From NCBI GenBank assembly GCA_965247125.1, contig CBDFGO010000002.1:1062379-1126378 (forward strand): a DNA stretch of 64,000 bases, in the 5' to 3' direction. The notes below the pieces were generated by a model that saw only the letters and a list, made by a program, of their open reading frames with translations, was not told where the DNA came from and ran no database searches. The position numbers were made by a program, and so were the translations under genes. Of this stretch, positions 19,700-39,325 are shown in pieces. Positions within the stretch are counted from its first letter, which is position 1. Each line of letters begins with the position of its first letter. Source of the DNA: Rhodothermales bacterium. Its GTDB lineage: Bacteria; Bacteroidota; Rhodothermia; Rhodothermales; UBA10348.

Positions 19700-19779
19700 C
19701 TAATGGAGCCTGATCCTAGTGGAGCCTGATCCTAGTGAAGCCTGATCCTAGTGAAGCCTGATCCTAGTGAAGCCTGATC
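19700..19779. repeat. Tandem repeat, 5 x 16 bp (CTAGTGAAGCCTGATC on the plus strand; GATCAGGCTTCACTAG on the minus strand)
   Basis: Copies at 19700, 19716, 19732, 19748 and 19764. The three copies nearest the gene are identical, and the outer two differ by 1-2 nt. The first 3 nt of the copy at 19764 are the stop codon of the gene at 19764-22907. Confidence 0.95.
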
Positions 19780-22907: not shown

Positions 22908-23049
22908 GGATGTCCGATCAACGTCTGCGATTGCGAAAAGTGTACGCGCGGAAGTACCTTCTCGCGCGACCAAGCATTGCTGTACCGATAGCCAATATAC
23001 CACTTTGACTTCTTGTAAGCCCACCCTTTTCAATTCATCATCCTACGTC

Positions 23050-26738: not shown

Positions 26739-27383
26739 TTGTATGTTGTCTCCGTTCCAAAAGATAGACGGAGTCTCGATATTTCGAGCAGAAATATTCA
26801 GAAATACGACGTGAAAAAGGCCGCGAATCTTACCGGAGTACTTTTACTCGGCGGACGAAGTCGTCGATTCGGATCTGACAAAACTCGAGCTTCACTCGGT
26901 GGCACGCCGCTCGCCGGGCACGCGCACCGTGCGCTTTCCGAAGTGTGCTCGCGGGTGCTCCTCTCCGTCTCGAAGCACTCTTCGCAGTCTTCACTTGGCG
27001 AATTGAGCGGCCGTCTTCTGTTCGATGATGTGCCCGACCGGGGGCCTCTGGGGGGCATCTTGACGGCTTTCTCCGTTTCGACGGAGCCCTACCTGGTGAT
27101 TCTGGCGGGAGATCTTCCCCGAATCAGGTCCGCTACATTATCCCGCATGGTCATGCGGTTCGAATCTGGCGTTCTTTTTGCTCGAAATGAGCAATCTGGT
27201 CGTGTCCAACCGTTGTGCGGGATCTGGAGCCACGAAGTCACCGGGCAACTTGCAAAGTACCTGGAATCCGGACACCGATCGGTTCTGGGATTTCTGGATG
27301 AGGTCGAGACACAGGCGTTTGACCTGTCCCCGGAGGAGTTGATAAATATAAATCGTCCTGGCGACCTGGAAGATGTTCGATAA
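26739..27383 (+). CDS. mobA: Molybdenum cofactor guanylyltransferase MobA
   Basis: Motifs GVLLLGGRSRRFGSDK, DDVPDRGPLGGILTA and VILAGDLPRI. The real start may be the GTG near 26811 (VKKAANLTGV...). Confidence 0.75.
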   Translation: MYVVSVPKDRRSLDISSRNIQKYDVKKAANLTGVLLLGGRSRRFGSDKTRASLGGTPLAGHAHRALSEVCSRVLLSVSKHSSQSSLGELSGRLLFDDVPDRGPLGGILTAFSVSTEPYLVILAGDLPRIRSATLSRMVMRFESGVLFARNEQSGRVQPLCGIWSHEVTGQLAKYLESGHRSVLGFLDEVETQAFDLSPEELININRPGDLEDVR

Positions 27384-27476
27384 AGCTTCCGGACCTCTAT
27401 TATACGTTGTTGATTGTTCTGAGAATGGAGCCACAAGAATTCCTCACGCCAAGCCAGCAGTTTCCCCCATCATTCG

Positions 27477-29126
27477 ATGAATTACGGATTCCTGATCAAC
27501 AATGACACCTGCATCGGCTGCCATGCGTGCTCCACAGCGTGTAAGAGTGAGAACGAGGTGCCACTTGGCGTCAATCGGACGTGGGTCAAGACGGTTGAGA
27601 CGGGCGTTTTCCCTGACGTTACCCGCAATTTTCAGGTCACGCGATGTAATCACTGTTCAAATCCGCCATGTGTCCGCATCTGCCCCGTGACGGCGATGTA
27701 CCAGAGGGATGATGGAATTGTAGAGTTCGACCCGGACAGCTGCATCGGATGCAAGGCGTGTATGCAGGCCTGTCCGTACGACGCCATTTACATCGATCCC
27801 GAATCGGGAACGGCTGCGAAATGTCACTATTGTGCGCACCGTGTTGATATCGGTCTCGAACCCGCCTGTGTGGTGGTGTGTCCGGAACACGCGATTCTGG
27901 CGGGCGATTTGGATGATCCCCTGACTGAAATTTCCCAGATGATCGCGCGCAATAAGGTCACGGTGCGAAGACCCGAACAGGGCACGGTGCCGAATCTATT
28001 CTATATCGGAGGGGATGACATGGCAATGCACCCGACATCCGTACAGGGTGCCCAAGAGACCTTTGCCTGGTCTGATCCCATGCCAGAAGCCGGAACCGGC
28101 GGTGTTCGCGAGAAGGATCATCGGCCCAATTCAGGGCCTGTGAAGACATCCCCTTCGGGTCAGCCTTTACGAACACCCCAACCACAGGGGATTGCTACCG
28201 GTGGCCCCATTCAGATTGGAAAGGGCCGTATGGCGGAGCAGATGACTCAGGTGGTGTGGAACGCGCAGCATCGCGTACCGTGGCACTGGCCTGTGCCTGC
28301 GTATCTGGTCACCAAAGGCGTTGCCGCTGGTATGTTCTTAATCGTGTCGCTGATGTCCATTCTCAAGATCGGTGAGATCGGCAACTTCAGTGGACTTGTA
28401 ACGGCTTCCTCCTGTCTGTTTTTCCTCGTAGTCACGACTGCGCTGTTGGTCTATGATCTAGAACGCCCCGAGCGTTTTTTGCGCATCATCACGCGTCCTC
28501 AGTGGAAAAGTTGGCTGGTTCGAGGGGCCTATCTGCTCATCGCATTCAGTATTCTGGTCACAATCTGGACAGCCGGTGAACTGGCTCTGTGGATGTCCTG
28601 GATTGAAGAGGCTGACTACCTCCTAGGGCGAACCGTCCTCAACTGGGTCGGTGTACCGCTGGCGGTTGGCGCCGCCGTCTATACGGCATTCCTGTTCGGT
28701 CAGGCAGAGGGCCGGGATCTGTGGCAGAGTACTCTCCTACCGCTGCATTTGATTGTGCAGTCGTTTGTTGCAGGTGCTGCGTTCTTCATGATTGTCGGAA
28801 GCTTCGTCGAACTGGATGCGGACGTGATCGCGTTGGTCCGACTCACATTCACCACGAGTCTGGTTCTGGACCTTCTGGTGACGATGTTCGGCGAGTTCGG
28901 CATGCCGCACGCATCTGAGGCTGCTGCGCGAGCTGCGCATATGATTGTGAGAGGACGATACGCCCGCTCATTCTGGATCGGTAGCGTTCTTTTCGGTCAC
29001 ATCGTTCCACTAGGATTGGACTTCGCCAACTTCCCAGGAGCTATTGCCGGAATACTGGCGATCGTGGGTCTGTTCTTATACGAGCGCGCCTTCGTCAACG
29101 CCCCACAGGAAATCCCCAACAGCTGA
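27477..29126 (+). CDS. Fusion protein: four-cluster 4Fe-4S ferredoxin subunit (PsrB/SoeB/DmsB type) plus NrfD/PsrC-type 8-TM quinone-interacting membrane subunit
   Basis: Cys motifs CIGCHACSTACK, CNHCSNPPCVRICP, CIGCKACMQACP and CHYCAHRVDIGLEPACVVVCP lie in the first ~170 aa. A ~90-aa P/G-rich linker follows, then eight hydrophobic helices. There is no signal peptide. Confidence 0.8.
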   Translation: MNYGFLINNDTCIGCHACSTACKSENEVPLGVNRTWVKTVETGVFPDVTRNFQVTRCNHCSNPPCVRICPVTAMYQRDDGIVEFDPDSCIGCKACMQACPYDAIYIDPESGTAAKCHYCAHRVDIGLEPACVVVCPEHAILAGDLDDPLTEISQMIARNKVTVRRPEQGTVPNLFYIGGDDMAMHPTSVQGAQETFAWSDPMPEAGTGGVREKDHRPNSGPVKTSPSGQPLRTPQPQGIATGGPIQIGKGRMAEQMTQVVWNAQHRVPWHWPVPAYLVTKGVAAGMFLIVSLMSILKIGEIGNFSGLVTASSCLFFLVVTTALLVYDLERPERFLRIITRPQWKSWLVRGAYLLIAFSILVTIWTAGELALWMSWIEEADYLLGRTVLNWVGVPLAVGAAVYTAFLFGQAEGRDLWQSTLLPLHLIVQSFVAGAAFFMIVGSFVELDADVIALVRLTFTTSLVLDLLVTMFGEFGMPHASEAAARAAHMIVRGRYARSFWIGSVLFGHIVPLGLDFANFPGAIAGILAIVGLFLYERAFVNAPQEIPNS

Positions 29127-29130
29127 CTCG

Positions 29131-32118
29131 ATGAGTACTAAGAAAGTGAGCAGCACCGACAGTAGTCCATCCGAGTCCGGATTCGGGCTTCCGGAATTTT
29201 CGACAGCTTCTAGGCAGCCTGAAAAGATCGAAATGACGACCGTCCGACATCCAGACGGCCGAATGAGCCAATATCCACCCTCAGAGATGTGGGATGATTG
29301 GGTCGAGTGGGATGGAAAGCAGTGGCCTCGGCGTGTCGCTCGTCACTACACGTTGGTTCCAACGGTCTGCTTTAACTGCGAGAGTGCGTGTGGACTGCTA
29401 GCCTACGTGGATCGGAAAACGCTGGACATTAAAAAATTTGAAGGGAATCCGAAACACCCGGGTAGCCGCGGTCGAAATTGCGCCAGGGGGCCTGCTACAA
29501 TCAATCAGGTGTATGATCCGGAGCGTATTCTGTACCCCCTGAAGCGAGTTGGTGAGCGGGGTGAGGGGAAATGGAAGCGCATCACCTGGGACGAAGCGCT
29601 GACGGAAATCGGCGATAAAATGAATGCTTCCCGTCAGAAAAGGCGCGATGGCATTATGTACCACGTCGGTAGACCAGGTGAGGATGGCTACACCAATCGA
29701 TGTATCCAGGCCTGGGGTGTGGACGCGCACAATTCACATACGAACATCTGTTCGGGCGGGGCTCGGGCGGGCTATTTCCTCTGGTCCGGCTTCGACCGCC
29801 CGAGCCCGGACTACGCCAATGCAAATGTTATTGTGCTCATCTCGAGCCACCTCGAGACGGGCCACTATTTCAATCCACACGCGCAACGGATAATGGAGGC
29901 GAAGGTGAACGGCGCAAAACTGATCACCTTCGATCCACGTCTTTCAAACACGGCTTCGAAATCAGACACCTGGCTGCCCACCTGGCCGGGGTCCGAGCAA
30001 ACAGTTCTCCTGGCGATAGCCAATTACCTCATCCAGAATGACCTTTACGACAAAGACTTCATGCGTCGATGGGTAAACTGGCGTGAGACGCTGAAATTTT
30101 TCAAAGATCGTCCTTACGAGGAGGTCGATTTTGAACTCCCCGGGGAAAAGATCTGGGAACGATTTCGCGCCCTTCTCGCGGGCGGGCGCTTCAATCTCGA
30201 GGAAGATGAAGCTGACTTTGATGTGTTCGATCGATTGCTCAAGGCGCTTTATGCGGAGTATACCTTCGAGCGTGCTGCAGAAGAGTCACAGGTCTCCATA
30301 GAAAAGATCAAGGAGGCGGCATTCTGTATCGCTGATTGTCAGGGTCGTCTTGCCGCGCACACGTGGCGCAGCGCCTCTATCGGAAACAAGGGAGGATGGC
30401 AGGTGGCGCGGTGTCTGCTCTTCTTGAACGTGTTGACGGGCAGCATTGGGACCGAGGGTGGTACTTCAGGAAACAGCTGGAATAAATTTGTCCCCAAGCC
30501 CTTCGATCAACCACCACCCCTGGAATCCTGGAACGAACTCCACCTCCCCCATGAGTGGCCCCTCGCCTTCTATGAAATGAGCTTCCTGCTTCCGCACTTC
30601 CTGGAAGAAGGGCGCGGTGAGGTCGACGTTTACATATCCCGCGTTTACAATCCACTCTGGATTAATCCGGACGGATTCATGTGGATGCGGGCGCTGAAAG
30701 ATGAGAGCAAGATCAAGTGTCACGTCGCCCTGACCCCAACCTGGAATGAATCAGCCTGGTTCGCCGACTACGTCCTTCCGATGGGCCACGCGAGTGAGCG
30801 TCATGACCTGATGAGCCAAGAAACCCATGCAGGGCAATGGATTGCGTTCCGGCAACCTGTTCAGCGAGTCGCGGCAGAACGCCTGGGGCGAAAGGTGAAA
30901 TACACCTGGGAGACGAATCCAGGGGAGGTCTGGGAAGAAAACGAATTCTGGATTGAGCTATCGGTGCGCATGGACCCCAATGGCTCTCTGGGTATCCGAA
31001 AACATTTCCAAAGCCCGTATCGCGAGGGCGAGATTGTAACCGTAGAGGAATATTATCGGTGGATCTTTGAGAACAGCGTGCCGGGACTTCCTGAGGCGGC
31101 GGAAAAAGAGGGCGTCTCTCCTCTGGAGTACATGAGAAAGTACGCCGCCTTTGAAATCAATAATGATCACTACGTACCGTATGAAGAGCGGATCGATAAG
31201 AAAACCACGAAAATGGATGACCAAAGTCGACTGGTCCGTGATGGCTCCGTCGTTGGAATCATGATCGATGGCGTCCCGCGAGCAGGATTCTCGACGCCGA
31301 GCCGCAAGATGGAATTCTTCAGTCCGACCATGCATGAGTGGGGCTGGCCGGAAAAGGAGCACACCATTCCCTGGACACTTAAAAGTCACGTTCACCCGGA
31401 CAGCATTGATCGGGAAAAAGGCGAGATGCTTCTACTGCCCAATTTTCGTCTACCGACGCTCATTCATACGAGAAGCGCCAACGCCAAATGGCTCTACGAA
31501 TTAAGCCACAAAAATCCTGTGTGGATGCATCCTTCTGATGCCGGACGTCTCGGGGTGGATTCGGGTGATCTGATTCGCATTACGACCCGGATTGGATACT
31601 TCGTCGACAAGGTGTGGGTGACCGAGGGGATCAAGCCTGGAATAATTGCGATGAGTCACCACCTGGGTCGATGGCGGTTGAAGGAGGCCGAGGGCGTGAG
31701 CCGTGGGGCGTCAAATCTGGTGTCGATTTCCGAAGAAAACGAGACCGAAGGTCGGCTACGGGTAGAACACGGTGCCGGTGCCTGGAAATCATTCGATCCG
31801 GATACTTCTCGAATCTGGTGGGAGGATGTTGGGGTGCACCAGAATCTTACACATGCTGTGCAGCCCGACCCGGTATCCGGTCACCACTGTTGGCTTCAGA
31901 AAGCGTTCAATGTCGAAAAAGCGCGTGCGGAAGATCGGCACGGGGACGTTTATGTCGATACGAAGGCCTCTATGGAAAACTACCACGAGTGGGTAAAGCT
32001 CTCCAGATCGGCGGTAGATCACTCTCCGGACGGACTGCGACGGCCGTACTGGTTCAAGCGGCCACTGAAGCCCGTAAAAGCCGCTTATGCTCTTCCTGAC
32101 AAGCCGTTTGGTCGCTAG
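29131..32118 (+). CDS. Molybdopterin (bis-MGD) oxidoreductase catalytic subunit, Psr/Phs/Ttr/Soe-like, without a Tat signal
   Basis: ATG 29131 lies 4 nt after the preceding stop. FS0 cluster motif CFNCESACGLLAYV...GRNCARG. A candidate Cys Mo ligand sits in HTNICSGGARAG. The protein is ~995 aa and has no RR motif in the first ~90 aa. Confidence 0.8.
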   Translation: MSTKKVSSTDSSPSESGFGLPEFSTASRQPEKIEMTTVRHPDGRMSQYPPSEMWDDWVEWDGKQWPRRVARHYTLVPTVCFNCESACGLLAYVDRKTLDIKKFEGNPKHPGSRGRNCARGPATINQVYDPERILYPLKRVGERGEGKWKRITWDEALTEIGDKMNASRQKRRDGIMYHVGRPGEDGYTNRCIQAWGVDAHNSHTNICSGGARAGYFLWSGFDRPSPDYANANVIVLISSHLETGHYFNPHAQRIMEAKVNGAKLITFDPRLSNTASKSDTWLPTWPGSEQTVLLAIANYLIQNDLYDKDFMRRWVNWRETLKFFKDRPYEEVDFELPGEKIWERFRALLAGGRFNLEEDEADFDVFDRLLKALYAEYTFERAAEESQVSIEKIKEAAFCIADCQGRLAAHTWRSASIGNKGGWQVARCLLFLNVLTGSIGTEGGTSGNSWNKFVPKPFDQPPPLESWNELHLPHEWPLAFYEMSFLLPHFLEEGRGEVDVYISRVYNPLWINPDGFMWMRALKDESKIKCHVALTPTWNESAWFADYVLPMGHASERHDLMSQETHAGQWIAFRQPVQRVAAERLGRKVKYTWETNPGEVWEENEFWIELSVRMDPNGSLGIRKHFQSPYREGEIVTVEEYYRWIFENSVPGLPEAAEKEGVSPLEYMRKYAAFEINNDHYVPYEERIDKKTTKMDDQSRLVRDGSVVGIMIDGVPRAGFSTPSRKMEFFSPTMHEWGWPEKEHTIPWTLKSHVHPDSIDREKGEMLLLPNFRLPTLIHTRSANAKWLYELSHKNPVWMHPSDAGRLGVDSGDLIRITTRIGYFVDKVWVTEGIKPGIIAMSHHLGRWRLKEAEGVSRGASNLVSISEENETEGRLRVEHGAGAWKSFDPDTSRIWWEDVGVHQNLTHAVQPDPVSGHHCWLQKAFNVEKARAEDRHGDVYVDTKASMENYHEWVKLSRSAVDHSPDGLRRPYWFKRPLKPVKAAYALPDKPFGR

Positions 32119-32195
32119 GAAGATCGTGATTAAGGGTTCCACAGATCGATTCTCCTGGAGATGTCCAAAGATGTAATGACAAGTACTGACAAGCA

Positions 32196-33131
32196 TTGTT
32201 ACCCGATTACTACATTCCCATCCACGACACCTTGAGCGCAACAATCCCATCAGATCAAATACAGAGATTGGCTGATCTTCTGCAGCGTCCACCGTCGCAG
32301 GATGGCGATCTGTCCTGGTTGAGTGATGCGGCTCATGATCTGCAGTTGTCTTCCGACGAACTGGCCGCGGAACACTACCGGGTTCTGGTTCACGAACTCA
32401 TGCCAGCTGCATCAGTGTTTCTTGCTCAGGATGCCATGCTGGGGGGCGGTATTGGCCAATCAGTGCAGGAGTTCATGAGTGCGCACGATCACCAGCCTAC
32501 CTCGCCTACGGACCCTCCGGATCACCTTGCGGAAGAGGTACGTTTCTTGGAGTATTTACTGGCAGCAGATCAGAGAGAAGCAGCTTCCAATTTTTTCACA
32601 CATCTGGGCGGATGGGCTCCGTTGTGCCTGAATGTGATTTCGACCTCAGGGAGCGTTCTGTTCGAATCCGTGGCGGAAGCGCTTAGAGACGCTCTGATTG
32701 AAGTTGGGCACAACCTGCCTCAATCCGCCGGTTTGGATCTGTTTCACCCCTCACTCACTCCGGGACCGGTGACTTTTCAACTGGAACACAGCAGAACAGG
32801 TCTGGCCCAGATCGGGAGTTTTTTTTCCAGCCCGGCTCAGTGCGGCATCTATCTCTCGAAAAGAAAAATCAGTATGCTGGCCCGCCAAACCAATCTTCCG
32901 ACCGGCTTTGGATCGCGGGCACGTACCATCGAAGGCCTCTTCCGTTCAGCCGGACAGTACGGAGGGATGGACACGGTGTGCCACTTTCTGGCGAAGGAGA
33001 TTGAATCTACCCAACGGGTCTGGCAGTCCTGGAAAGATGAGGAGTTACCGGGATCCCGTCACTGGGCCGCCTTCTGGTCGTCACGACTGGATTCAACCCG
33101 TTCCATCGTGAGGCGCCTGGGCGATTCCTGA
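32196..33131 (+). CDS. TorD/DmsD/NarJ-family redox-enzyme maturation chaperone with a ~120-aa C-terminal extension
   Basis: YRVLVHELMPAASVFL...DPPDHLAEEVRFLEYLL...FFTHLGGWAPLCL matches the Nitrate_red_del family pattern (Y..LF...P..S.y...PDHl..EL.Fl..L). The last ~120 aa are unassigned. Confidence 0.6.
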   Translation: MLPDYYIPIHDTLSATIPSDQIQRLADLLQRPPSQDGDLSWLSDAAHDLQLSSDELAAEHYRVLVHELMPAASVFLAQDAMLGGGIGQSVQEFMSAHDHQPTSPTDPPDHLAEEVRFLEYLLAADQREAASNFFTHLGGWAPLCLNVISTSGSVLFESVAEALRDALIEVGHNLPQSAGLDLFHPSLTPGPVTFQLEHSRTGLAQIGSFFSSPAQCGIYLSKRKISMLARQTNLPTGFGSRARTIEGLFRSAGQYGGMDTVCHFLAKEIESTQRVWQSWKDEELPGSRHWAAFWSSRLDSTRSIVRRLGDS

Positions 33132-33140
33132 CATTCTCCA

Positions 33141-34880
33141 TCAAGGGAGGCGGCCGACATATTCGTCGAGACGATTCCACCCGGTCAAAACGTGTACCAG
33201 GGCGCGGTGAACGCTCAGGAAAAAATGATCTACCCCAATGGTATCATGCACTCCAGAGGATCGAAGCACCTTTACGACCGCCATTTTGGCCCCGCTCATG
33301 TAAAAATCGATCTCTCTCTTTGACAGGGCCTCATGGGTGTCCGAAAGAATAGCGAGAGCTGTCGTATCCAGATCATTGATACTCGAAGCGTCGAGGATGA
33401 TGGCCCGAATATCCTGTCCGGACGCCTGTTTCATGATCACCTCGCGCAGTCGGTCGGCGTTCGCGAAGGAGAAAGAAGCATCTATTCGGAGGATGAGGAC
33501 CCCATCGAATTGTTTGGCATCTCCATGATCTCGCATCCCGCGGAAGGTGCGTGTTTGATCCAAATGACCCAAAATGGCCACATTTGGGCGACTGATTCTA
33601 TAGAGCACGGCGATGACCGACAGCGCAACGCCCGTCAGTACCCCCTGATGGATACCGAACAGTAGCGTGGCCAGGAAGGTGAGTGAAGCGATCACCCCAT
33701 CTCTCGCCTTCGTATTCCAGAGAAACCGAATCTCTGAGATGTCGATCAGGCCCAGGGCAGAGACGACAATGATCGATGCGAACACAGGAATCGGGAGGAA
33801 ATAGAAGATTGGCGTGAAAAACAGTAACGCCAGACCGACAAAAAGCGCCGCAATGGCGCTCGACATGGGAGTTGTGGCACCGGCTTCGACATTCACCGCC
33901 GTGCGAGAAAAACTTCCCGATACAGGCAATCCCCCCATCACAGAGCTGGATAGGTTCATAGATCCCAGCGCCAGCAATTCCGCATTGGGCCTGACCTGAT
34001 CACCACTTCGCGCGGCAAATACCTTTCCAAGGGAGATGACGTTCATGAACTGAACGAGCGCAAGCATTATCGCGGTCGGAAAGAGAGCCTGTATAGACTC
34101 GAGCCCAAATTCAGGTAGTTTAAATGATGGTAGACCACCGGCAATACTCCCGACAATGGCCACGCCGTCTGACTCGAGATCCATGAAAACGACGGCGAGG
34201 GCAGTGACAACGACAGCCACGAGCGCCGAAGGAAATTTCCTGGCAACTTTTCGTCCCACGAGTAAAATTAGAATCCCTGAAACCGAGATCGCAAACGACG
34301 CAGGGTGCAGCTCGCCAATCCGCTCCACAACCACCATCACCTGCGAAACCGCATTCAAGCTCTGCGCGGTTGATATTCCCAACAGGGTACCGAGCTGACT
34401 GAATCCGATAATCAGAGCGGCCGCAGCGGTAAATCCAGCGATCAGAGGTCGGGAAAGCAGATTCACCACAAAGCCAAATCGCAGAAAGCCCATGACCAGC
34501 TGGATCACGCCGACCATCATCGCCAGCGTGAAGATGTGAACCATATAGGCATCTGACGAAGCAGGGGCAAGAGCCGCCAACCCGGCGGCGACCAGCAGAC
34601 CGTCGATGGCGGTAATGCCCACTGAGAGATGTCGGGAAGTACCCAGGATCGCGTAGACAAGCAGCGGAACGAGCGAAGCGTAGAGTCCGTGAATCGGAGG
34701 GGCACCGGCCAGAATGGCGTAAGCGATACTCTGTGGGATGAGAACCACTCCGACGGTCGCGCCTGCCATCAGGTCACCCGAAAACTGGCTCCGGTTGTAT
34801 CCGCGGATCCAGCTTAAAGCCGACGGTTTGTCAATGTGGTCGATGTTCATCGAACGCGAAAGTCCTGTTTTGGAGGTCAA
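33141..34880 (-). CDS. SulP-family anion (sulfate) transporter with a C-terminal STAS domain
   Basis: DLMAGATVGVVLIPQSIAYAILAGAPPIHGLYASLVPLLVYAILGTSRHLSVG is the SulP signature region. A STAS-like tail follows (ILRIDASFSFANADRL...ILDASSINDLDTTA). The ATG at 34850 (MNIDHID...) is the more likely start. Confidence 0.88.
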   Translation of the reverse strand: MTSKTGLSRSMNIDHIDKPSALSWIRGYNRSQFSGDLMAGATVGVVLIPQSIAYAILAGAPPIHGLYASLVPLLVYAILGTSRHLSVGITAIDGLLVAAGLAALAPASSDAYMVHIFTLAMMVGVIQLVMGFLRFGFVVNLLSRPLIAGFTAAAALIIGFSQLGTLLGISTAQSLNAVSQVMVVVERIGELHPASFAISVSGILILLVGRKVARKFPSALVAVVVTALAVVFMDLESDGVAIVGSIAGGLPSFKLPEFGLESIQALFPTAIMLALVQFMNVISLGKVFAARSGDQVRPNAELLALGSMNLSSSVMGGLPVSGSFSRTAVNVEAGATTPMSSAIAALFVGLALLFFTPIFYFLPIPVFASIIVVSALGLIDISEIRFLWNTKARDGVIASLTFLATLLFGIHQGVLTGVALSVIAVLYRISRPNVAILGHLDQTRTFRGMRDHGDAKQFDGVLILRIDASFSFANADRLREVIMKQASGQDIRAIILDASSINDLDTTALAILSDTHEALSKREIDFYMSGAKMAVVKVLRSSGVHDTIGVDHFFLSVHRALVHVLTGWNRLDEYVGRLP

Positions 34881-34903
34881 AAGCCTGCATTGGAGGTCAA
34901 AAG
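34870..34903. promoter_or_regulatory. Direct repeat TTGGAGGTCAAAAG x2 (20-bp period) upstream of, or overlapping, the SulP start
   Basis: Perfect 14-mers at 34870-34883 and 34890-34903. They lie 20-53 nt upstream of ATG 34850 on the minus strand. Confidence 0.3.
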
Positions 34904-34970
34904 ATAGTCATTCGGGTAGCGCCAGCCCGATCCTGTCCCCTTCAGCTACAGATCGCGTGGATTTCGATAC

Positions 34971-36422
34971 TCAGGAATCGATCAATTCACCATTGACGAC
35001 GACGCGCGCAGACTGGGCAGTCCACGCAGCAAAAGAGCCACTGACGAAAATCACGTCGTGCCCCAGTCTGGCAAGTAGAGAGCTCGCAATCGCTGCGCGA
35101 CCACCGCCCGCACAGTGGACCAGCTTAGTTCCTGGGGGAATTTCGCCCTGACGGACATAGAGGCGGGTGTGCGCGATATTTTTCGAGTTCAGCATGTGAG
35201 CCGCTTGATATTCGGCCTGGTTTCGAACGTCGAGTACCACGACATCATTTTGAGTCTCGATAATTTTATCGACCTGCTCAAAGCCGATTTCCGTAATACC
35301 AGCCATTTCGGCCCCGTTGGCCGCGTATGATTCCAACACGTCAGGCGAAGCAAAGCCCTCGATGCTGTCGAGTCCGATGCGAATCAGGTCTCGGACAGCC
35401 TCTTCCACGTGCTCTTCCTCGATAATAATATAGATGGGCACATTCTCTTCGACGATCGACCCGGCAGTGGTATTGAAGGATTTGTTGAAGGGAGCATACA
35501 GAGAGCCCGGAAGGTGAGAAGCCATGTAAGCCGAGCGATCGAGTCGCGTATCAAGAACAACCACGTCAGTTTTTCCCGCAAGATTCGCCAGGTCCTGTTC
35601 AGTCAGGGATCGCGGTTCAGGGAGATTGCCCAGAACTCTTGGTCCACTTCTGTTTTCGCGTTTCATTCGGGCGAAATACATGGGAGGTTCCGGCTGACCA
35701 TCGAGAATGGCGGAAATAAATTCGGCCTCTCCCCGGATAGCAGACCCGATGGCTCCGTTGAACGCTCGTTCGTATCCGACGGTGGACTGAGGAATGGCAC
35801 CGAGGGCCTTGCCGCACGAACTTCCGGCACCGTGCGCCGGCCAGACTTGAAGAAAGTCATCCAACCGCAGGAAGTCCTGAACGGATTGATAGAGCGCACG
35901 TGCTGACACGTCCGCTGCGCCTTCGATTCCTGCGGCCGACTCCAGCAGGTCGGGTCGACCAAGATCGCCGACGAACACAAAATCACCGGTCAAGATTCCC
36001 ATGGGTTGGTCGGCTCCACCCCCAAGATCAGTAACCAGGAAGGAAACATGTTCGGGCGTGTGACCCGGGGAATGGATCGTCGTAAACTTGATGTTGCCGA
36101 CATTGAAAGAGTCTCCATGGGTCAGCAATGTGTACGAGTACGAAGAATCGAGGAGCCAATCATATTTCCAGTCAGCGTCTCCTTCGTCAGAGGCATAAAC
36201 ATGAACGCTGGTTTCTGCAAATTCCCGTAGTCCTGTCAGGTAATCTGCATGAATGTGCGTATCCGCCGTGGCGACAATTTTCAAGCCTTCCTGTTTTGCA
36301 ATCGCGACGTATCTATCGATATCTCGTTCAGGATCTATAATGATCGCATCACCGGTGGCCTGGCAGCCAATCAGGTAGGCATATTGCGCGAGCTTTTGAT
36401 CCCAGATCTGTCTGAAGAGCAT
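34971..36422 (-). CDS. MBL-fold persulfide-dioxygenase-like protein fused to two rhodanese domains (CstB-like architecture)
   Basis: MBL motif ATADTHIHADYLTG and HSPGHTPEH. The first rhodanese-like domain lacks an active-site Cys. The second has the CxGGxR loop VHCAGGGRAAIAS. Confidence 0.75.
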   Translation of the reverse strand: MLFRQIWDQKLAQYAYLIGCQATGDAIIIDPERDIDRYVAIAKQEGLKIVATADTHIHADYLTGLREFAETSVHVYASDEGDADWKYDWLLDSSYSYTLLTHGDSFNVGNIKFTTIHSPGHTPEHVSFLVTDLGGGADQPMGILTGDFVFVGDLGRPDLLESAAGIEGAADVSARALYQSVQDFLRLDDFLQVWPAHGAGSSCGKALGAIPQSTVGYERAFNGAIGSAIRGEAEFISAILDGQPEPPMYFARMKRENRSGPRVLGNLPEPRSLTEQDLANLAGKTDVVVLDTRLDRSAYMASHLPGSLYAPFNKSFNTTAGSIVEENVPIYIIIEEEHVEEAVRDLIRIGLDSIEGFASPDVLESYAANGAEMAGITEIGFEQVDKIIETQNDVVVLDVRNQAEYQAAHMLNSKNIAHTRLYVRQGEIPPGTKLVHCAGGGRAAIASSLLARLGHDVIFVSGSFAAWTAQSARVVVNGELIDS

Positions 36423-36468
36423 TTTCGGTGGGCCTGTTTACTTACGAATAATTCTGGTGGTTTTCCGG

Positions 36469-36909
36469 TCAGTGGGGCAGGCGGGGTCGCAAAACGCCAT
36501 AGGCAAATGTGCCTGCAACGGCGGCAGTAATCGTCACCAGCATCACCGAGACGCCGTTGCCTACTAACGCGAACAGGGGTCCGGGGCACGCTCCTGTCAG
36601 TGCCCATCCGAGGCCAAAAACCGTACCACCGGCCCAGTAACGCGTTCCGGAACCCATCTCCTTGGGTGGTATAACGATTTCAGAACCGCCCGGTGCCCGT
36701 ATCTTCCATTTCTTGATGATCTGTATGGAAATCGCTCCCACCGCTACGGCACTGCCGATGATTCCAAACATGTGAAATGCCTGAAATCGAAACATTTCCT
36801 GTATGCGATACCAGGAAATAACCTCTGACTTCGAGAACACAATACCGAGGTAAATCCCGATCAGCAGATAGGGGATGAGCCGCGAAACGCCTGTGTTGGA
36901 TGTTGACAT
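36469..36909 (-). CDS. YeeE/YedE-family sulfur-compound transport protein (half-size, second of a pair)
   Basis: ATG 36909 (MSTSNTGVSRLIPYLLIGIYLG...) lies 8 nt after the stop of the upstream half. The protein has 4 hydrophobic helices and the motif GWALTGACPGP. The ORF extension to 37128 overlaps the neighbouring gene and is rejected. Confidence 0.7.
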   Translation of the reverse strand: MSTSNTGVSRLIPYLLIGIYLGIVFSKSEVISWYRIQEMFRFQAFHMFGIIGSAVAVGAISIQIIKKWKIRAPGGSEIVIPPKEMGSGTRYWAGGTVFGLGWALTGACPGPLFALVGNGVSVMLVTITAAVAGTFAYGVLRPRLPH

Positions 36910-36917
36910 TGTAACTC

Positions 36918-37529
36918 CTACAGGACGAGTGGAAGGATGACGAATGAGGCTATGAGGCCTCCGGCGAAAAAGCCGAGCACTGCGATGAGTGACGGGAGCT
37001 GAAGGTCTGCGAGGCCGCTGATCGCGTGTCCAGACGTGCAGCCCCCCGCCCAACGGGATCCGAATCCAACAAGAAAACCACCGACTACGATCAGAATCAT
37101 TCCCGGTCCGCTTAACAATCCCTCCCACGAGAAGTACTGGAAGGGCACGAGTCCCGCGAACTCAGTGATTCCAAGCAAGGCCAGGTCTGACCGGGTGGCT
37201 TCCGATATGCCGATCGGATCGGGATTGTAGAGAAACGTAACACTGATCCACCCCCCAATCAGTACACCCGTTATCAGGACGAGATTCCACACCCCTGATT
37301 TCCAGTCGTATCGGAAAAACTCTACTTTCGTATCGAAAATCGAGCAAATGTGTCGCAGGTTGGCCGAAACACCAAACTGTTTTCCTCCAATGAGAAGCAG
37401 CATCGGGACGATGAGGCCAATCAGCGGATCGGCAACATACCAGGGCCAGGGTTGGGACAAGAAATCAATCATATGCGTGTATCTGTCTGGTGCGACCGGC
37501 GGCGTCATGTCCGCCGGAAGGAACGCCAA
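36918..37529 (-). CDS. YeeE/YedE-family sulfur-compound transport protein (half-size, first of a pair)
   Basis: Motif GSRWAGGCTSGHAISG with multiple TM helices. An alternative start at ATG 37472 (MIDFLSQPWPWY) is plausible. Confidence 0.75.
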   Translation of the reverse strand: MAFLPADMTPPVAPDRYTHMIDFLSQPWPWYVADPLIGLIVPMLLLIGGKQFGVSANLRHICSIFDTKVEFFRYDWKSGVWNLVLITGVLIGGWISVTFLYNPDPIGISEATRSDLALLGITEFAGLVPFQYFSWEGLLSGPGMILIVVGGFLVGFGSRWAGGCTSGHAISGLADLQLPSLIAVLGFFAGGLIASFVILPLVL

Positions 37530-37576: not shown

Positions 37577-39325
37577 TCATCCGGTTGTCATTTTTGATGG
37601 TCGAATATCCTTTGCCTGGAGTTGCAGGCTTGTCCGACCATTCCAGGTATTTTCCTCAATGGAATACAAAAGGTCAAGCGGCGTGCCCGATTCTTGGCTG
37701 TCTGCGACAATCTCCAGATGTTTGCCCATTCCAAATCCTATTACGTTTCGGACAGGGTGAGACCCGGAACCGGATCTGACGGCAAACTTCAGGTGGTTTC
37801 GATCCCTTCCGACTGTCGCGACCGGCCCTATCACTTCAAGATTTGTGGACAGGAAAATCGGAGCCTCGTTATCCACTCCGAAGGGTTCAAATTGCTTCAG
37901 AACGGCCCAGAATCGTTTATCCAGATCCTGGAGATTCATTTCTGCGTCGACTTCGACCACAGGCTCGAGAATATCCGGCGTCACCGCAGCGGCCACTGCT
38001 TCGTCGAATTTGATTGAAAAGGCCTCCACGTCTTCGGATCGGAGTGAAAGTCCAGCGGCAAAGTTATGTCCCCCGAATTCGATGAGCAGATCTGCGCAGC
38101 TTTCCAGTGCTTCATACACATTGATTCCGTTGATTGATCGCGCACTGCCCTTGACCACATCTCCACTTTTGGTCAACATGATGGCCGGACGAAAATGCCG
38201 TTCCACAAGGCGGCTGGCAACGATGCCAATGACGCCCAGGTGCCAGGTGGGGTGGTACAGCACGACGGTATGCCGTTGCGGCCCAGAAAGGAGTCTGTCA
38301 GCCATTAAGAACGCTTCTTCCTGGGTTGCGCGGTCAAGGGCGCGCCGTTCGTCGTTCAGGCGTTCGAGCTGCCGAGCTCGCGCGACCGCTTCCAGTTCGT
38401 CATTGGCCAGCATCAAAGTCACGGCGCGCCCTGCATCACCCAGTCTTCCCGCCGCGTTGATCCTGGGACCCAGGGCGAAGGAAATGGATCGCGGAGAGCA
38501 CTCGCTCATTCTCACGCCCGCCTGCTCCGCCAACATTTTCAGGCCAATTCGAGGATTTTCGCGCAACGACTGGAGGCCTGCCCGGAGTAGGATTCGATTC
38601 TCGCCCGTGAGCGAAACCATGTCGCTGGCGGTGGCTATGGCGACGAGGTCCAGGTATTCGTACAACTCTTCAGGATCGTGACCAAGTCGTTGGTGGATCG
38701 CCTGGGCGAGTTTCATGGTTACGCCACATCCGCACAATTCCTTGAACGGGTAACAGCAATCAGAACGCTTGGAATCCAGAACCGCGACCACATCGGGTAG
38801 TGACTTCTGTGGCGTATGATGGTCACAAATTACCAGGTCAATGCCCAGTGATCCGGCATATTTGGACTCGTCAATGGCGGTGACTCCGCAGTCAAGGGCG
38901 ACCACAACGGTGGCTCCCTCGGCTTGAGCAAGGGTAAGACCCTCCCTACTCAGTCCGTATCCGTGCTTGAATCGATCTGGGACGAAGAAACACACATTCG
39001 CGCCTTGTCCTTCGAGATAATGAGTCAATAGTGCAGTAGATGTTGTGCCATCAACGTCATAATCACCGTAAACGAGGATCTTCTCGCCATCTTTGATGGC
39101 GCGCACGATTCGATCGACGGCAAGCTCCATATCCGCCATCATAAAGGGATCGTGAAGCTGATCAGTTCCCGACCGGAAAAACACCCTGGCAGCTTCAAAC
39201 GAGTCGATTCCACGCAAGATGAGCGCTCGCACGAGCGGTTCTGGCAAATCGTTCAGAACGCCCTGCAATTCATCGACGAGTCCTTCGTTGTCAAGACTTT
39301 TTATTCGCCAGAGCTTTTTAGTCAC
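37577..39325 (-). CDS. recJ: Single-stranded-DNA-specific exonuclease RecJ
   Basis: 582 aa. DHH-family motifs ILVYGDYDVDGTTS, VVALDCG and ICDHHTP, plus a DHHA1 region GGHNFAAG. Confidence 0.9.
   Translation of the reverse strand: MTKKLWRIKSLDNEGLVDELQGVLNDLPEPLVRALILRGIDSFEAARVFFRSGTDQLHDPFMMADMELAVDRIVRAIKDGEKILVYGDYDVDGTTSTALLTHYLEGQGANVCFFVPDRFKHGYGLSREGLTLAQAEGATVVVALDCGVTAIDESKYAGSLGIDLVICDHHTPQKSLPDVVAVLDSKRSDCCYPFKELCGCGVTMKLAQAIHQRLGHDPEELYEYLDLVAIATASDMVSLTGENRILLRAGLQSLRENPRIGLKMLAEQAGVRMSECSPRSISFALGPRINAAGRLGDAGRAVTLMLANDELEAVARARQLERLNDERRALDRATQEEAFLMADRLLSGPQRHTVVLYHPTWHLGVIGIVASRLVERHFRPAIMLTKSGDVVKGSARSINGINVYEALESCADLLIEFGGHNFAAGLSLRSEDVEAFSIKFDEAVAAAVTPDILEPVVEVDAEMNLQDLDKRFWAVLKQFEPFGVDNEAPIFLSTNLEVIGPVATVGRDRNHLKFAVRSGSGSHPVRNVIGFGMGKHLEIVADSQESGTPLDLLYSIEENTWNGRTSLQLQAKDIRPSKMTTG

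What the first reader, a model, noticed from the sequence alone, without database searches (positions are those of the whole stretch)
26739..37529. Candidate cytoplasmic sulfur-oxidation module: a Tat-less Psr/Soe-type molybdoenzyme operon convergent with SulP, a CstB-like dioxygenase-rhodanese and YeeE/YedE genes
A plus-strand operon runs head-on into a minus-strand sulfur gene set. The operon is mobA (26739), a fused 4Fe-4S/NrfD protein (27477), a ~995-aa bis-MGD catalytic subunit (29131, ATG 4 nt after the previous stop) and a TorD-family chaperone (32196). The minus-strand set is two half-size YeeE/YedE sulfur-transport proteins (37529-36469), an MBL persulfide-dioxygenase-like protein with two rhodanese domains (36422-34971) and a SulP/STAS anion transporter (34880-33141). 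The catalytic subunit has no RR motif in its first ~90 residues. The FeS protein has its first Cys cluster at residue 11. So neither carries a Tat or Sec signal. That is the situation described for the cytoplasm-facing SoeABC sulfite:quinone oxidoreductase, not for periplasmic Psr/Phs/Ttr enzymes. The candidate Mo ligand is Cys (HTNICSGG), as in the sulfur-compound clade. My inference is a pathway with four steps. Thiosulfate or persulfide enters through YeeE. Rhodanese plus dioxygenase convert it to sulfite. The Soe-like enzyme oxidises sulfite to sulfate and passes electrons to quinone. SulP exports the sulfate. A Sox-independent locus with fused B and C subunits and its own chaperone and mobA is not a textbook arrangement.
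Basis: partly seen in the sequence, partly recalled or inferred. Interest (0 to 1): 0.75.

Follow-up and report, generated by a model that had tools for sequence, protein, structure and literature searches.

The report
Cytoplasm-facing Soe-like sulfur-oxidation gene cluster
A marine Rhodothermales-type bacterium carries a membrane-bound molybdenum enzyme that faces the cell interior and sits next to genes that oxidise persulfide, and the same pairing recurs in several phyla, which suggests that many ordinary heterotrophs oxidise toxic sulfite to sulfate with an enzyme family nobody has characterised.

Summary
All eight genes are present at the stated coordinates with the stated domains. The plus-strand operon is MobA, a fused four-cluster FeS/NrfD protein, a 995-aa bis-MGD subunit (FS0 Cys80/83/87/117, Mo ligand Cys207 aligned to PsrA Cys173) and a NarJ/TorD-like chaperone. 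No Tat motif occurs here or in 87 related loci. The positive-inside rule puts the FeS domain in the cytoplasm.

The minus-strand set is SulP-STAS, a full-length CstB-like persulfide dioxygenase with two rhodanese domains, and two half-size YeeE/YedE proteins.

The Mo enzyme belongs to a large, highly conserved family (8000 or more proteins, at least 591 species genomes). Its order is always FeS-NrfD-MopB, fused in 70 of 74 loci. In 48 of 87 loci it lies next to sulfur genes: persulfide dioxygenase, SulP, YeeE, TusA, DsrE, SQR-like, or sHdr-LbpA genes.

A cytoplasmic sulfite:quinone oxidoreductase is therefore the best reading. The substrate is untested. I could not retrieve a reference SoeA, so SoeABC membership is unproven. 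Indirect evidence places the family outside canonical SoeABC. The fusion is the family norm, not a local oddity.

The parts
26739..27383 (+). MobA-like molybdenum cofactor guanylyltransferase; start codon uncertain
   Evidence: PF12804 at 7.7e-29. The best NCBIfam hit is TIGR02665 MobA, 107.6 bits, below its cut-off. It sits next to the operon only in Rhodothermales loci.
27477..29126 (+). Fused electron-transfer and membrane-anchor subunit: N-terminal four-[4Fe-4S] ferredoxin domain (about residues 1-180), Pro/Gly-rich linker, C-terminal 8-helix NrfD/PsrC domain (about residues 278-539)
   Evidence: PF13247 plus PF03916. 16 Cys in four motifs. No signal peptide; the first cluster starts at Cys12. 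Family-averaged Lys+Arg is 4.6 in the TM2-3 loop and 3.2 in the TM6-7 loop, against 0-1.1 in the opposite loops, which gives an N-terminus-in topology. All 120 best homologues are fused, as are 70 of 74 scorable loci.
29131..32118 (+). Catalytic bis-MGD (MopB) subunit, 995 aa, Tat-less; FS0 Cys80/83/87/117; predicted Mo ligand Cys207
   Evidence: PF04879, PF00384 and PF01568. No NCBIfam equivalog reaches its cut-off; the best is PhsA at 214 bits against 694. The best solved relative is PsrA 2vpw at 3e-41, and Cys207 aligns with PsrA Cys173. Foldseek gives ArrA and PsrA as best matches at 18-21% identity. Homologues are 70-96% identical across Rhodothermales and Chloroflexota.
32196..33131 (+). 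NarJ/TorD/DmsD-family maturation chaperone; start uncertain
   Evidence: PF02613 at 31.8 bits, above the gathering score. A homologous gene lies downstream of the MopB gene in about 25 of 87 loci.
33141..34880 (-). SulP-family anion transporter with C-terminal STAS domain
   Evidence: PF00916 plus PF01740. TIGR00815 scores 451 bits, above its cut-off. It is a neighbour of the Mo enzyme in 18-19 of 87 loci, and in L002 it carries an added rhodanese domain.
34971..36422 (-). CstB-like persulfide dioxygenase (MBL fold) with a middle rhodanese domain and a C-terminal catalytic rhodanese domain
   Evidence: Full-length matches to 3tp9 (1.8e-112) and 3r2u (3.9e-94). HIHADY metal motif at residue 56 and rhodanese loop CAGGGR at Cys437. 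An MBL/PDO gene lies next to the Mo enzyme in 26-27 of 87 loci.
36469..36909 (-). Half-size YeeE/YedE-family membrane protein (DUF6691 type)
   Evidence: PF20398 plus PF04143. Called as 146 aa in 96%-identical contigs. It co-occurs with the family in 8-9 loci.
36918..37529 (-). Half-size YeeE/YedE-family membrane protein (Sulf_transp type, GGCTSGH motif)
   Evidence: PF04143 at 9.5e-17. The NCBIfam TsuA match is only 27 bits against a 400-bit cut-off. It co-occurs with the family in 10 loci.

Best explanation
The plus-strand operon encodes a quinone-linked complex iron-sulfur molybdoenzyme whose catalytic and FeS parts face the cytoplasm. Its most likely role is to oxidise sulfite made in the cytoplasm to sulfate. 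Electrons would pass from Mo-bisMGD (Cys207) through FS0 and four [4Fe-4S] clusters to a quinone site in the fused NrfD domain.

The sulfite would come from the convergent gene set. The CstB-like enzyme oxidises persulfide sulfur with O2. Its rhodanese domains shuttle sulfane sulfur to or from thiosulfate or thiols. The two YeeE/YedE halves and SulP move thiosulfate, sulfite or sulfate across the membrane. MobA and the NarJ-like protein build and insert the cofactor.

Shown: gene content, domain architecture, absence of export signals, N-in topology, the Cys ligand, and recurrent neighbourhood with sulfane-sulfur-oxidising genes. Inferred: the substrate (sulfite), the direction (oxidation), the electron acceptor (quinone) and the transport directions.
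For: Architecture and orientation:
- Domains and cluster motifs.
- No Tat motif in the window, in homologues or in 87 loci.
- Positive-inside pattern with the FeS domain on the Lys/Arg-rich side.
- Cys207 aligns with PsrA Cys173.

The sulfite source:
- The dioxygenase-rhodanese protein matches 3tp9 and 3r2u over its full length and keeps the catalytic Cys.

Neighbourhood:
- In an Ardenticatenaceae contig, TusA, the FeS-NrfD fusion, MopB, MBL, rhodanese, two YeeE halves, a NarJ-like gene and SulP-STAS-rhodanese lie on one strand.
- The same convergent layout occurs in an 8.1-Mb contig and in another Rhodothermales genome, which adds an SQR-like flavoprotein and a HiPIP.
- On Rhodococcus jostii pRHL3 the genes are DsrE, TusA, the fusion and MopB, next to three MBL genes, ArsR regulators and thioredoxin.
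- Thermomicrobium roseum has a CsoR-type regulator directly upstream.
- Unbiased clustering of neighbours in 87 loci ranks MBL/PDO (26 loci), NarJ-like (25), SulP (18), YeeE halves (10 and 8), TusA (6), SQR-like (6) and DUF1641 (6) at the top. Smaller clusters are HdrB/C-like CCG protein, LbpA-like GcvH and LplA-like ligase, 5 loci each; counted per locus, they mark 9 loci, mostly Chloroflexota.
- 48 of 87 loci carry at least one such gene: 4 of 5 Rhodothermales, 21 of 32 Chloroflexota, 7 of 12 Myxococcota, 10 of 12 other Bacteroidota.

Both PDO and sHdr-LbpA are described as cytoplasmic producers of sulfite (PMC11094781; PMC11507549, listed and known to me only from its title and abstract opening). 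A cytoplasm-facing NrfD-anchored Mo enzyme that oxidises sulfite to sulfate with quinone is the described function of SoeABC (PMC8076601).
Against: - No biochemical or genetic data exist for any member of this family that I could find.
- I could not compare it with a characterised SoeA.
- Gene order (FeS-NrfD-MopB) and the fusion differ from soeABC.
- About 45% of related loci, including 9 of 10 Acidobacteriota, show no sulfur gene within the fetched flanks.
- As I recall it, CstB of S. aureus releases mainly thiosulfate rather than free sulfite, so sulfite need not be the metabolite handed over.
- No SQR and no persulfide-sensing regulator is present in this window.
- Older annotations, one NCBI name and a published tentative assignment call relatives formate dehydrogenases.
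Confidence: 0.6

Rival explanations
1. The enzyme handles a different sulfur species, or runs as a quinol-oxidising reductase. It would be a cytoplasmic thiosulfate, polysulfide/persulfide or tetrathionate reductase (Phs/Psr/Sre/Ttr-like) that recycles the thiosulfate or sulfane sulfur produced by the CstB-like enzyme and delivered by TusA/DsrE.
For: The best NCBIfam and solved-structure matches are PhsA and PsrA, and TtrB is the best match for the FeS domain. As I recall it, CstB's end product is thiosulfate. The TusA, DsrE and rhodanese neighbours carry sulfane sulfur, not sulfite. The Aquifex enzyme now called SoeABC was first described as a sulfur reductase (PMC10100899).
Against: All scores are far below the family cut-offs: PhsA 214 bits against 694, TtrA 110 against 1750. 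The carriers are mostly aerobic heterotrophs with an O2-dependent dioxygenase beside the enzyme, so reduction back to sulfide would be a futile cycle. Association with sHdr-LbpA, whose product is sulfite, fits an oxidase better.
Confidence: 0.15
2. The neighbourhood is only partly meaningful. The enzyme oxidises or reduces an unrelated oxyanion or small molecule (arsenite or thioarsenate, selenate, an S- or N-oxide), and the sulfur genes are a separate detoxification module that often travels with it.
For: About 45% of related loci have no sulfur genes nearby. A Tat-less Soe-like paralogue in Thioalkalivibrio was induced by arsenite and proposed as an arsenite or thioarsenate oxidiser (PMC6620896). 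Substrate cannot be read from MopB sequence.
Against: Sulfur genes are the top-ranked neighbours in an unbiased clustering. They occur on the same strand within tens of bases in several phyla. No ars, aio or arx genes, or other alternative-substrate genes, recur among the neighbours.
Confidence: 0.1
3. It is a formate:quinone oxidoreductase. This would match the 'FqoABC' proposed for an uncharacterised NrfD-containing complex of Actinobacteria, Chlorobi, Chloroflexi and Deltaproteobacteria, and the 'formate dehydrogenase' label given to some members.
For: One homologue is named formate dehydrogenase by NCBI (P0045). The T. roseum gene that maps to this locus by gene order is labelled formate dehydrogenase in a transcriptome table. 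PMC8076601 tentatively assigns a taxonomically overlapping group as FqoABC. A formate dehydrogenase (9vap) is the second-best solved match by sequence.
Against: The residue after the ligand is Ser (ICSGG), whereas the aligned formate dehydrogenase has Cys-His. From my own knowledge, the His next to the Sec/Cys ligand is conserved in formate dehydrogenases. FDH models score 84-145 bits against cut-offs of 666-1400. No formate-related neighbours recur, while sulfur genes do.
Confidence: 0.05

Closest known systems
SoeABC sulfite:quinone oxidoreductase (Allochromatium vinosum Alvin_2491-2489; Aquifex aeolicus aq_1234/1232/1231)
   Same: It has a Mo-bisPGD subunit with an N-terminal [4Fe-4S] cluster and a Cys ligand, a four-cluster FeS protein and a haem-less NrfD/PsrC anchor. 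Neither peripheral subunit has a Tat signal, so the active site faces the cytoplasm and the NrfD subunit is inverted (PMC8076601). It works downstream of cytoplasmic sulfite producers. The size is similar: the catalytic subunit here is 114.5 kDa, against about 109 kDa as I recall for A. vinosum SoeA.
   Different: Here the FeS and NrfD subunits are one polypeptide, the gene order is (BC)-A rather than A-B-C, and a NarJ-like chaperone is part of the operon. The carriers are heterotrophs of Rhodothermales, Chloroflexota, Myxococcota, Actinomycetota and others. A survey found SoeC only in Proteobacteria, Clostridia and Aquificae. No source names these proteins SoeA, SoeB or SoeC. I could not measure sequence relatedness to a characterised SoeA.
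PSRLC3 / 'FqoABC' group (Chlorobaculum tepidum CT0494-0496 and relatives)
   Same: It is an uncharacterised NrfD-anchored three-component molybdoenzyme. Its reported distribution (Actinobacteria, Chlorobi, Crenarchaeota, Chloroflexi, Deltaproteobacteria) overlaps the phyla found here. As I recall, sulfur researchers regard the green-sulfur-bacterial complex as cytoplasm-facing and SoeABC-like. A review paraphrasing Dahl 2013 says SoeABC genes are universal in purple and green sulfur bacteria.
   Different: That group is described as three separate subunits. Its tentative formate:quinone assignment conflicts with the sulfur context and with the missing Cys-His dyad seen here.
Polysulfide/thiosulfate reductase PsrABC/PhsABC (Thermus thermophilus 2VPZ)
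   Same: It is the closest solved structure and the closest NCBIfam model. The three-module architecture is the same, and Cys207 aligns with the Cys ligand Cys173.
   Different: Psr/Phs are Tat-exported and face the periplasm. Their catalytic subunit is about 230 residues shorter. Identity is only about 21% in the structural alignment, and the PhsA score is one third of the cut-off.
CstB of the Staphylococcus aureus cst operon, and related PDO-rhodanese fusions (3R2U, 3TP9, BpPRF 5VE3-5)
   Same: The minus-strand 483-aa protein has the same three-domain layout, matches over its full length, and keeps the metal motif and the C-terminal catalytic Cys.
   Different: As I recall it, the cst operon pairs CstB with CstA, SQR, a TauE exporter and the CstR repressor. 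Here the partners are two YeeE/YedE halves, SulP and a convergent molybdoenzyme operon, with no regulator in view.
NarGHI with NarJ
   Same: It is a cytoplasm-facing complex iron-sulfur molybdoenzyme that keeps a TorD/NarJ-family chaperone although it is not exported.
   Different: NarI is a dihaem cytochrome b, not an NrfD protein. The NarG ligand is Asp. NarG scores only 21.7 bits here.

Membership tests
SoeABC (sulfite:quinone oxidoreductase) | Mo-bisPGD catalytic subunit with an N-terminal FS0 [4Fe-4S] motif and a Cys ligand | tested here: met
   PF04879, PF00384 and PF01568. C80-x2-C83-x3-C87-x29-C117. Cys207 aligns with PsrA Cys173.
SoeABC (sulfite:quinone oxidoreductase) | No Tat or Sec signal on the catalytic and FeS subunits, so the active site is on the cytoplasmic side | tested here: met
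   No twin-arginine motif in the window, including the extended ORF, in homologues or in 87 loci. The FeS domain starts at Cys12. I applied no dedicated predictor such as SignalP or TatP.
SoeABC (sulfite:quinone oxidoreductase) | Haem-less 8-helix NrfD/PsrC anchor in inverted orientation (termini on the N-side) | tested here: met
   PF03916. Eight hydrophobic segments, with family-averaged Lys+Arg concentrated in loops 2-3 and 6-7, on the same side as the N-terminal FeS domain. This rests on hydropathy and the positive-inside rule only.
SoeABC (sulfite:quinone oxidoreductase) | Three separate subunits encoded in the order soeA-soeB-soeC | tested here: not met
   FeS and NrfD are one 549-aa protein. 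The order is FeS-NrfD-MopB here and in 74-79 of 87 loci. The two are fused in 70 of 74 scorable loci.
SoeABC (sulfite:quinone oxidoreductase) | Clusters in sequence with characterised SoeA/SoeC (A. vinosum, A. aeolicus) | not testable with these tools
   I could not retrieve a reference sequence. The key papers are not held, afdb50 is unavailable, there are no plasmid copies and the best 80 genome hits contain no classic sulfur oxidiser. Indirect evidence is negative: SoeC is reported only from Proteobacteria, Clostridia and Aquificae, and the JGI names are generic COG names.
SoeABC (sulfite:quinone oxidoreductase) | Sulfite-dependent quinone reduction | not testable with these tools
   This needs an enzyme assay.
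PsrABC/PhsABC | Tat-exported catalytic subunit, and a score above the PhsA equivalog cut-off | tested here: not met
   No Tat motif. NF012032 scores 214 bits against a 694-bit cut-off, and only the N-terminal third aligns well.
Formate dehydrogenase (FdnG/FdhF type; 'FqoA') | Sec/Cys ligand followed by the catalytic His, and a score above the FDH model cut-offs | tested here: not met
   Ser208 follows Cys207, whereas the aligned formate dehydrogenase 9vap has C-H. TIGR01591 scores 144.7 against 666, TIGR01553 scores 105 against 814, and NF041513 scores 83.7 against 1400.
CstB-type persulfide dioxygenase-sulfurtransferase | MBL-fold PDO domain with a metal motif, a middle rhodanese domain and a C-terminal rhodanese domain with catalytic Cys | tested here: met
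   Full-length alignment to 3tp9 (1.8e-112) and 3r2u (3.9e-94). HIHADY at residue 56 and CAGGGR at Cys437. Two rhodanese stretches. That 3r2u is CstB is from my memory.
YeeE/TsuA thiosulfate transporter | Single polypeptide of about 330 aa scoring above the TsuA equivalog cut-off | tested here: not met
   There are two separate half-size genes. NF052577 scores 27.3 and 17.7 bits against a 400-bit cut-off. Superfamily membership holds (PF04143, PF20398).
SulP sulfate permease family | Sulfate_transp plus STAS domains, and a score above TIGR00815 | tested here: met
   PF00916 at 1.3e-100 and PF01740 at 1.8e-18. TIGR00815 scores 451.2 against 380.45. Substrate and direction were not tested.
NarJ/TorD/DmsD maturation chaperones | PF02613 above the gathering score | tested here: met
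   31.8 bits against 22.2. A family relative, L021:14476-15447, scores 55.4 bits.
MobA | Score above the MobA equivalog cut-off | tested here: inconclusive
   PF12804 is clear at 101 bits. TIGR02665 scores 107.6 against 151.85, and it is the best of ten MobA-type models, all below their cut-offs.

The most novel reading that the evidence does not exclude
This is a member of a distinct and very widespread lineage of cytoplasm-facing sulfite:quinone oxidoreductases that has not been characterised. Its marks are a fused FeS-NrfD subunit, the gene order BC-A, and often a NarJ-like or Mrp/NBP35 maturation partner. It is separate from canonical SoeABC, and gene names and KEGG-style surveys miss it. 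It would supply the missing energy-conserving sulfite-to-sulfate step for heterotrophs that oxidise sulfane sulfur with persulfide dioxygenases or type II sHdr-LbpA systems. These include Rhodothermales, Saprospiraceae, Chloroflexota, Myxococcota and Actinomycetota; haloarchaea also carry the enzyme, but no sulfur-oxidation genes were seen beside it in the one archaeal locus examined.
Probability: 0.4. Interest if true: 0.7.

Novelty: new variant of a known kind. Interest (0 to 1): 0.55.

Why it matters
Heterotrophs with SQR and persulfide dioxygenase are now thought to carry out much of the sulfide oxidation in sediments and the ocean. What they do with the sulfite is unclear. One survey of Bohai Sea sediments, for example, did not detect soeABC at all (PMC12345210).

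Suppose this family is the sulfite:quinone oxidoreductase of such organisms. Then a step that is currently missing or attributed to chemistry becomes enzymatic and energy-conserving. Thousands of genes now labelled 'molybdopterin-dependent oxidoreductase', 'polysulfide reductase NrfD' or 'formate dehydrogenase' would gain a function. Sulfur-cycle gene surveys would need an extra marker.

The natural B-C fusion also fixes the orientation of an NrfD subunit. That is useful for the open question of how inverted NrfD modules couple quinone chemistry to the membrane potential.

Several carriers are cultured and some are genetically tractable (Rhodococcus jostii RHA1, Thermomicrobium roseum, Enhygromyxa salina), so the hypothesis can be tested directly.

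Tried and rejected
1. I tried five routes to a characterised SoeA for a direct comparison or phylogeny.
- The Dahl 2013 and Boughanemi 2020 papers are not held.
- The supplement of the MopB phylogeny paper has no sequences.
- Cluster look-ups of ten representative relatives returned almost no names.
- The plasmid search found no classic sulfur oxidiser.
- The afdb50 fold library, which would have carried UniProt names, was unavailable.

It kept only the best 80 of at least 591 relatives, all at 55% identity or more. More distant members such as Chlorobi or Proteobacteria stayed out of sight.

3. The sigma-70 promoter scan gave counts at the shuffled expectation, and the terminator-like sites, though above it, gave no usable signal at the gene boundaries. 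I did not use either; from my own knowledge, Bacteroidota promoters differ from the sigma-70 consensus.

4. I looked for an SQR or a persulfide-sensing regulator elsewhere in the window and found none.

5. I rejected the formate dehydrogenase reading (see rivals).

6. I rejected the idea that the B-C fusion is a local gene-calling or assembly artefact. It is conserved in 70 of 74 loci and in all 120 best homologues.

7. A first neighbour clustering was swamped by shadow ORFs inside the conserved MopB gene. I repeated it after masking the core genes. The 'NarJ' label is still inflated by such ORFs, so I use only the counts for it.

Full report
**Observation**

Plus strand:
- A MobA-like nucleotidyltransferase, 26739-27383.
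- A 549-aa protein, 27477-29126, that joins a four-cluster ferredoxin domain (Fer4_11) to an NrfD/PsrC membrane domain.
- A 995-aa MopB protein, 29131-32118, with Molybdop_Fe4S4, Molybdopterin and Molydop_binding domains.
- A NarJ/TorD-family protein, 32196-33131.

Minus strand:
- A SulP-STAS transporter, 34880-33141.
- A 483-aa MBL protein with two rhodanese stretches, 36422-34971.
- Two half-size Sulf_transp/DUF6691 proteins, 37529-36918 and 36909-36469.

A script confirmed the fine detail:
- The FeS domain has 16 Cys in four cluster motifs.
- The FS0 motif is C80/C83/C87/C117.
- The catalytic gene's ATG lies 4 nt after the preceding stop.
- The convergent stop codons are 9 nt apart.
- The dioxygenase has the metal motif HIHADY and the rhodanese loop CAGGGR.

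Corrections are minor. The first FeS Cys is residue 12. The second YeeE-half gene most likely starts at 36909, as called in 96%-identical contigs.

**Orientation**

Nothing resembling S/T-R-R-x-F-L-K precedes the FS0 cluster in the catalytic subunit. This also holds for the longer TTG-initiated ORF. The only RR, at residues 67-68, abuts the cluster and has no hydrophobic stretch after it.

The family behaves the same way. I found no strict Tat motif in any in-frame upstream extension of 87 related loci.

The fusion makes topology testable. I averaged over 121 aligned fused proteins. The eight hydrophobic segments leave Lys+Arg-rich loops between TM2-3 (4.6) and TM6-7 (3.2), and nearly uncharged loops on the other side (0-1.1). 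The signal-less N-terminal FeS domain therefore lies on the positive-inside, cytoplasmic face.

This matches the inverted arrangement postulated for SoeC (PMC8076601). I regard cytoplasmic orientation as well supported, though I used simple methods and no dedicated predictors.

**Catalytic subunit**

No NCBIfam equivalog reaches its cut-off. PhsA is best at 214 bits against 694, followed by DmsA/YnfE, type II DMSO reductases and formate dehydrogenases.

The best solved relative by sequence is Thermus PsrA at 3e-41. By fold, the best are ArrA and PsrA at 18-21% identity. No solved structure is close.

In the HMMER alignments, Cys207 of HTNICSGG lines up with PsrA Cys173 and with the ArrA ligand position. 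In the aligned formate dehydrogenase the ligand Cys is followed by His, but here by Ser.

The AlphaFold model is of moderate confidence (pLDDT 71.7, pTM 0.75).

**The family**

The protein search saturated at 8000 hits.
- The best 120 are 70-96% identical. They come from Rhodothermales and 'Bacteroidetes Order II' MAGs, and at 70-75% identity also from Caldilineae and Ardenticatenaceae.
- In the 50%-identity representative library the family collapses into essentially one full-length cluster (P0121, 65%).
- The next full-length relatives carry Tat signals (P0125 at 47%, P0153, P0148).
- Others have lost the ligand motif (P0122, P0129).

Plasmid-borne copies occur in Thermomicrobium roseum (56%), Rhodococcus jostii RHA1 (55%) and haloarchaea (48-52%).

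The best 80 span Rhodothermales, Chloroflexota, Myxococcota (including three Enhygromyxa salina genomes), Acidobacteriota, Saprospiraceae and Cyclobacteriaceae (including Flavilitoribacter nigricans), Planctomycetota, Gemmatimonadota and Binatia.

The FeS-NrfD fusion is the rule. All 120 best homologues of the fused protein are fused, and 70 of 74 scorable loci are fused. Rhodocaloribacter litoris is one of the few with separate genes. Gene order is always FeS, NrfD, MopB.

**Neighbourhood**

- Contigs 96% identical to the window repeat the whole layout.
- A second Rhodothermales genome has the same convergent sets, plus an SQR-like flavoprotein and a HiPIP.
- An 8.1-Mb contig of unknown phylum has the same layout plus a thioredoxin.
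- In an Ardenticatenaceae (Chloroflexota) contig everything is on one strand: TusA, the fusion, MopB, MBL, rhodanese, two YeeE halves, a NarJ-like gene and SulP-STAS-rhodanese.
- On Rhodococcus pRHL3 the operon is DsrE-TusA-fusion-MopB-Mrp/NBP35, with three MBL genes, two ArsR-type regulators and thioredoxin nearby.
- T. roseum has a CsoR-type 'metal-sensitive' regulator directly upstream.

An unbiased all-against-all clustering of ORFs from 87 loci, after masking the core genes, ranks the recurrent neighbours as follows:

| Neighbour | Loci (of 87) |
|---|---|
| MBL/PDO | 26 |
| NarJ-like | 25 |
| SulP | 18 |
| YeeE half a | 10 |
| YeeE half b | 8 |
| TusA | 6 |
| SQR-like Pyr_redox_2 | 6 |
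| DUF1641 | 6 |
| HdrB/C-like CCG protein (sHdr-type) | 5 |
| LbpA-like GcvH protein (sHdr-type) | 5 |
| LplA-like ligase (sHdr-type) | 5 |

Counted per locus, the three sHdr-type clusters mark 9 loci, mostly Chloroflexota.

These come, with tblastn counts. Overall 48 of 87 loci carry at least one such gene, and 29 of the 49 loci of 18 kb or longer do. The fractions are high in Rhodothermales, other Bacteroidota, Chloroflexota and Myxococcota, and low in Acidobacteriota.

Persulfide dioxygenases and sHdr-LbpA are two unrelated systems, and both are described as releasing sulfite in the cytoplasm (PMC11094781; PMC11507549, listed and known to me only from its title and abstract opening). A cytoplasm-facing molybdoenzyme that sits beside either one is most simply a sulfite oxidiser.

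**The minus-strand set**

The 483-aa protein aligns end to end with 3tp9 (1.8e-112) and 3r2u (3.9e-94). By my recollection 3r2u is S. aureus CstB. The protein keeps the C-terminal catalytic Cys.

SulP scores above the sulfate-permease subfamily cut-off. The YeeE halves reach only superfamily level.

I have no evidence on transport directions. CstB is reported, as I recall, to release thiosulfate, so the intermediate actually handed to the Mo enzyme is an open point.

The window holds no SQR or persulfide sensor.

**Comparison with known systems**

In function and architecture the closest described system is SoeABC. That complex is cytoplasm-facing, NrfD-anchored and quinone-reducing, and it has been characterised in A. 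vinosum and A. aeolicus.

I could not test membership in that family, because no reference sequence could be retrieved. The indirect evidence points away from canonical SoeABC:
- The gene order and the fusion differ.
- JGI names are COG fall-backs. A more distant PsrA-like hit, by contrast, carries what I recognise as the KEGG-style name 'thiosulfate reductase/polysulfide reductase chain A'.
- A KEGG-based survey finds SoeC only in Proteobacteria, Clostridia and Aquificae.

The same survey defines an uncharacterised 'FqoABC' group, with C. tepidum CT0494 as template, in Actinobacteria, Chlorobi, Crenarchaeota, Chloroflexi and Deltaproteobacteria. It tentatively calls it a formate:quinone oxidoreductase. 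The taxonomic overlap suggests that the present family belongs with, or next to, that group.

From memory, the green-sulfur-bacterial complex is the 'PSRLC3' that sulfur researchers treat as SoeABC-like. A review paraphrasing Dahl 2013 states that SoeABC genes are universal in purple and green sulfur bacteria. Metallosphaera 'SoeABC' is mentioned. Thioalkalivibrio carries a second, uncharacterised Tat-less Soe-like cluster.

So Soe-like diversity is recognised in the literature. I found no description of this fused family, or of its link to CstB-type dioxygenases, in the papers searched.

**Expression**

A T. roseum transcriptome table lists trd_A0630 (regulator, 2.3-fold up in stationary phase), trd_A0629 (4Fe-4S protein, 1.6-fold up) and trd_A0628 ('formate dehydrogenase', unchanged). 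All three have substantial read counts.

By gene order these match the regulator, fusion and MopB genes of the plasmid locus. I did not verify the mapping by sequence.

**Verdict**

I rate it a new variant of a known kind, a Soe-like complex iron-sulfur molybdoenzyme.

Interest is moderate (0.55). The substrate and the relation to canonical SoeABC both remain open.

Noticed in passing
window 50266-59772 (-): A run of seven genes looks like a reductive pyrimidine (uracil/thymine) catabolism cluster: a DHO_dh plus 4Fe-4S PydA/PreA-like protein, a Fer4_20 plus Pyr_redox_2 PreT-like protein, an aldehyde dehydrogenase, a hydantoinase-like amidohydrolase, a class III aminotransferase, a cytosine/uracil-family permease and a CN-hydrolase (beta-ureidopropionase-like).
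   Followed up: no
window 5268-6488 (+) and 3883-5187 (-): MoeA (molybdopterin molybdenumtransferase) lies next to a PGI-family gene about 20 kb upstream of the Mo operon. The same PGI-MoeA-GntR-...-M14 peptidase-NUDIX-MobA synteny is seen in another Rhodothermales genome, L007.
   Followed up: partly
P0125, P0153, P0148 (representative library); L012:5087-10998 (Sulfurovum mangrovi plasmid): The nearest full-length relatives outside the family carry clear twin-arginine signals (for example MAMHRRTFLKAAALTS), are about 1115-1123 aa long and share the HTNICS ligand motif and the YPP..W N-terminal motif. A frameshifted Sulfurovum copy with the same insertions has separate FeS, NrfD and TorD genes. 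A periplasm-facing sister clade of unknown function therefore seems to exist.
   Followed up: partly
P0122, P0129 (representative library): These Tat-less relatives are 41-43% identical, but the HTNICS Mo-ligand motif is not conserved. They may be cofactor-less paralogues.
   Followed up: no
L010:11802-12971 (Rhodococcus jostii pRHL3) and L011:11897-13057 (Natrinema halophilum plasmid): In the actinobacterial and haloarchaeal copies, the gene after the catalytic subunit is an Mrp/NBP35 FeS-cluster-delivery ATPase instead of a NarJ-like chaperone.
   Followed up: no
L020, L022, L023, L027, L028, L047 (Chloroflexota), L039 (Myxococcota) and L055 (unclassified): In these loci the Mo enzyme lies beside heterodisulfide-reductase-like (CCG plus Fer4), LbpA-like GcvH and LplA-like ligase genes. 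That is an sHdr-LbpA sulfur-oxidation cluster rather than a persulfide dioxygenase.
   Followed up: partly
window 19764-23033 (-), 17757-19601 (-), 48965-50140 (-): Three large secreted proteins carry Por_Secre_tail (type IX secretion) C-terminal domains: a Sortilin/BNR-like protein, a CBM2 protein and an NHL/SGL beta-propeller protein. This fits a Bacteroidota/Rhodothermota origin for the window.
   Followed up: no
window 41623-44535 (-) and 61468-63894 (-): Two large DUF7133 proteins. By its relative in L004, the first also has a 3-keto-disaccharide-hydrolase-like domain and contains a CxxCH motif. The second ends in a plastocyanin/azurin-type copper domain.
   Followed up: no
window 37577-39325 (-) and 39412-41553 (+): recJ ends 47 nt upstream of the first YeeE-half gene on the same strand, so the sulfur set may be co-transcribed with it. 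A GAF-HisKA histidine kinase diverges from recJ. Both are conserved in this position in Rhodothermales relatives.
   Followed up: no
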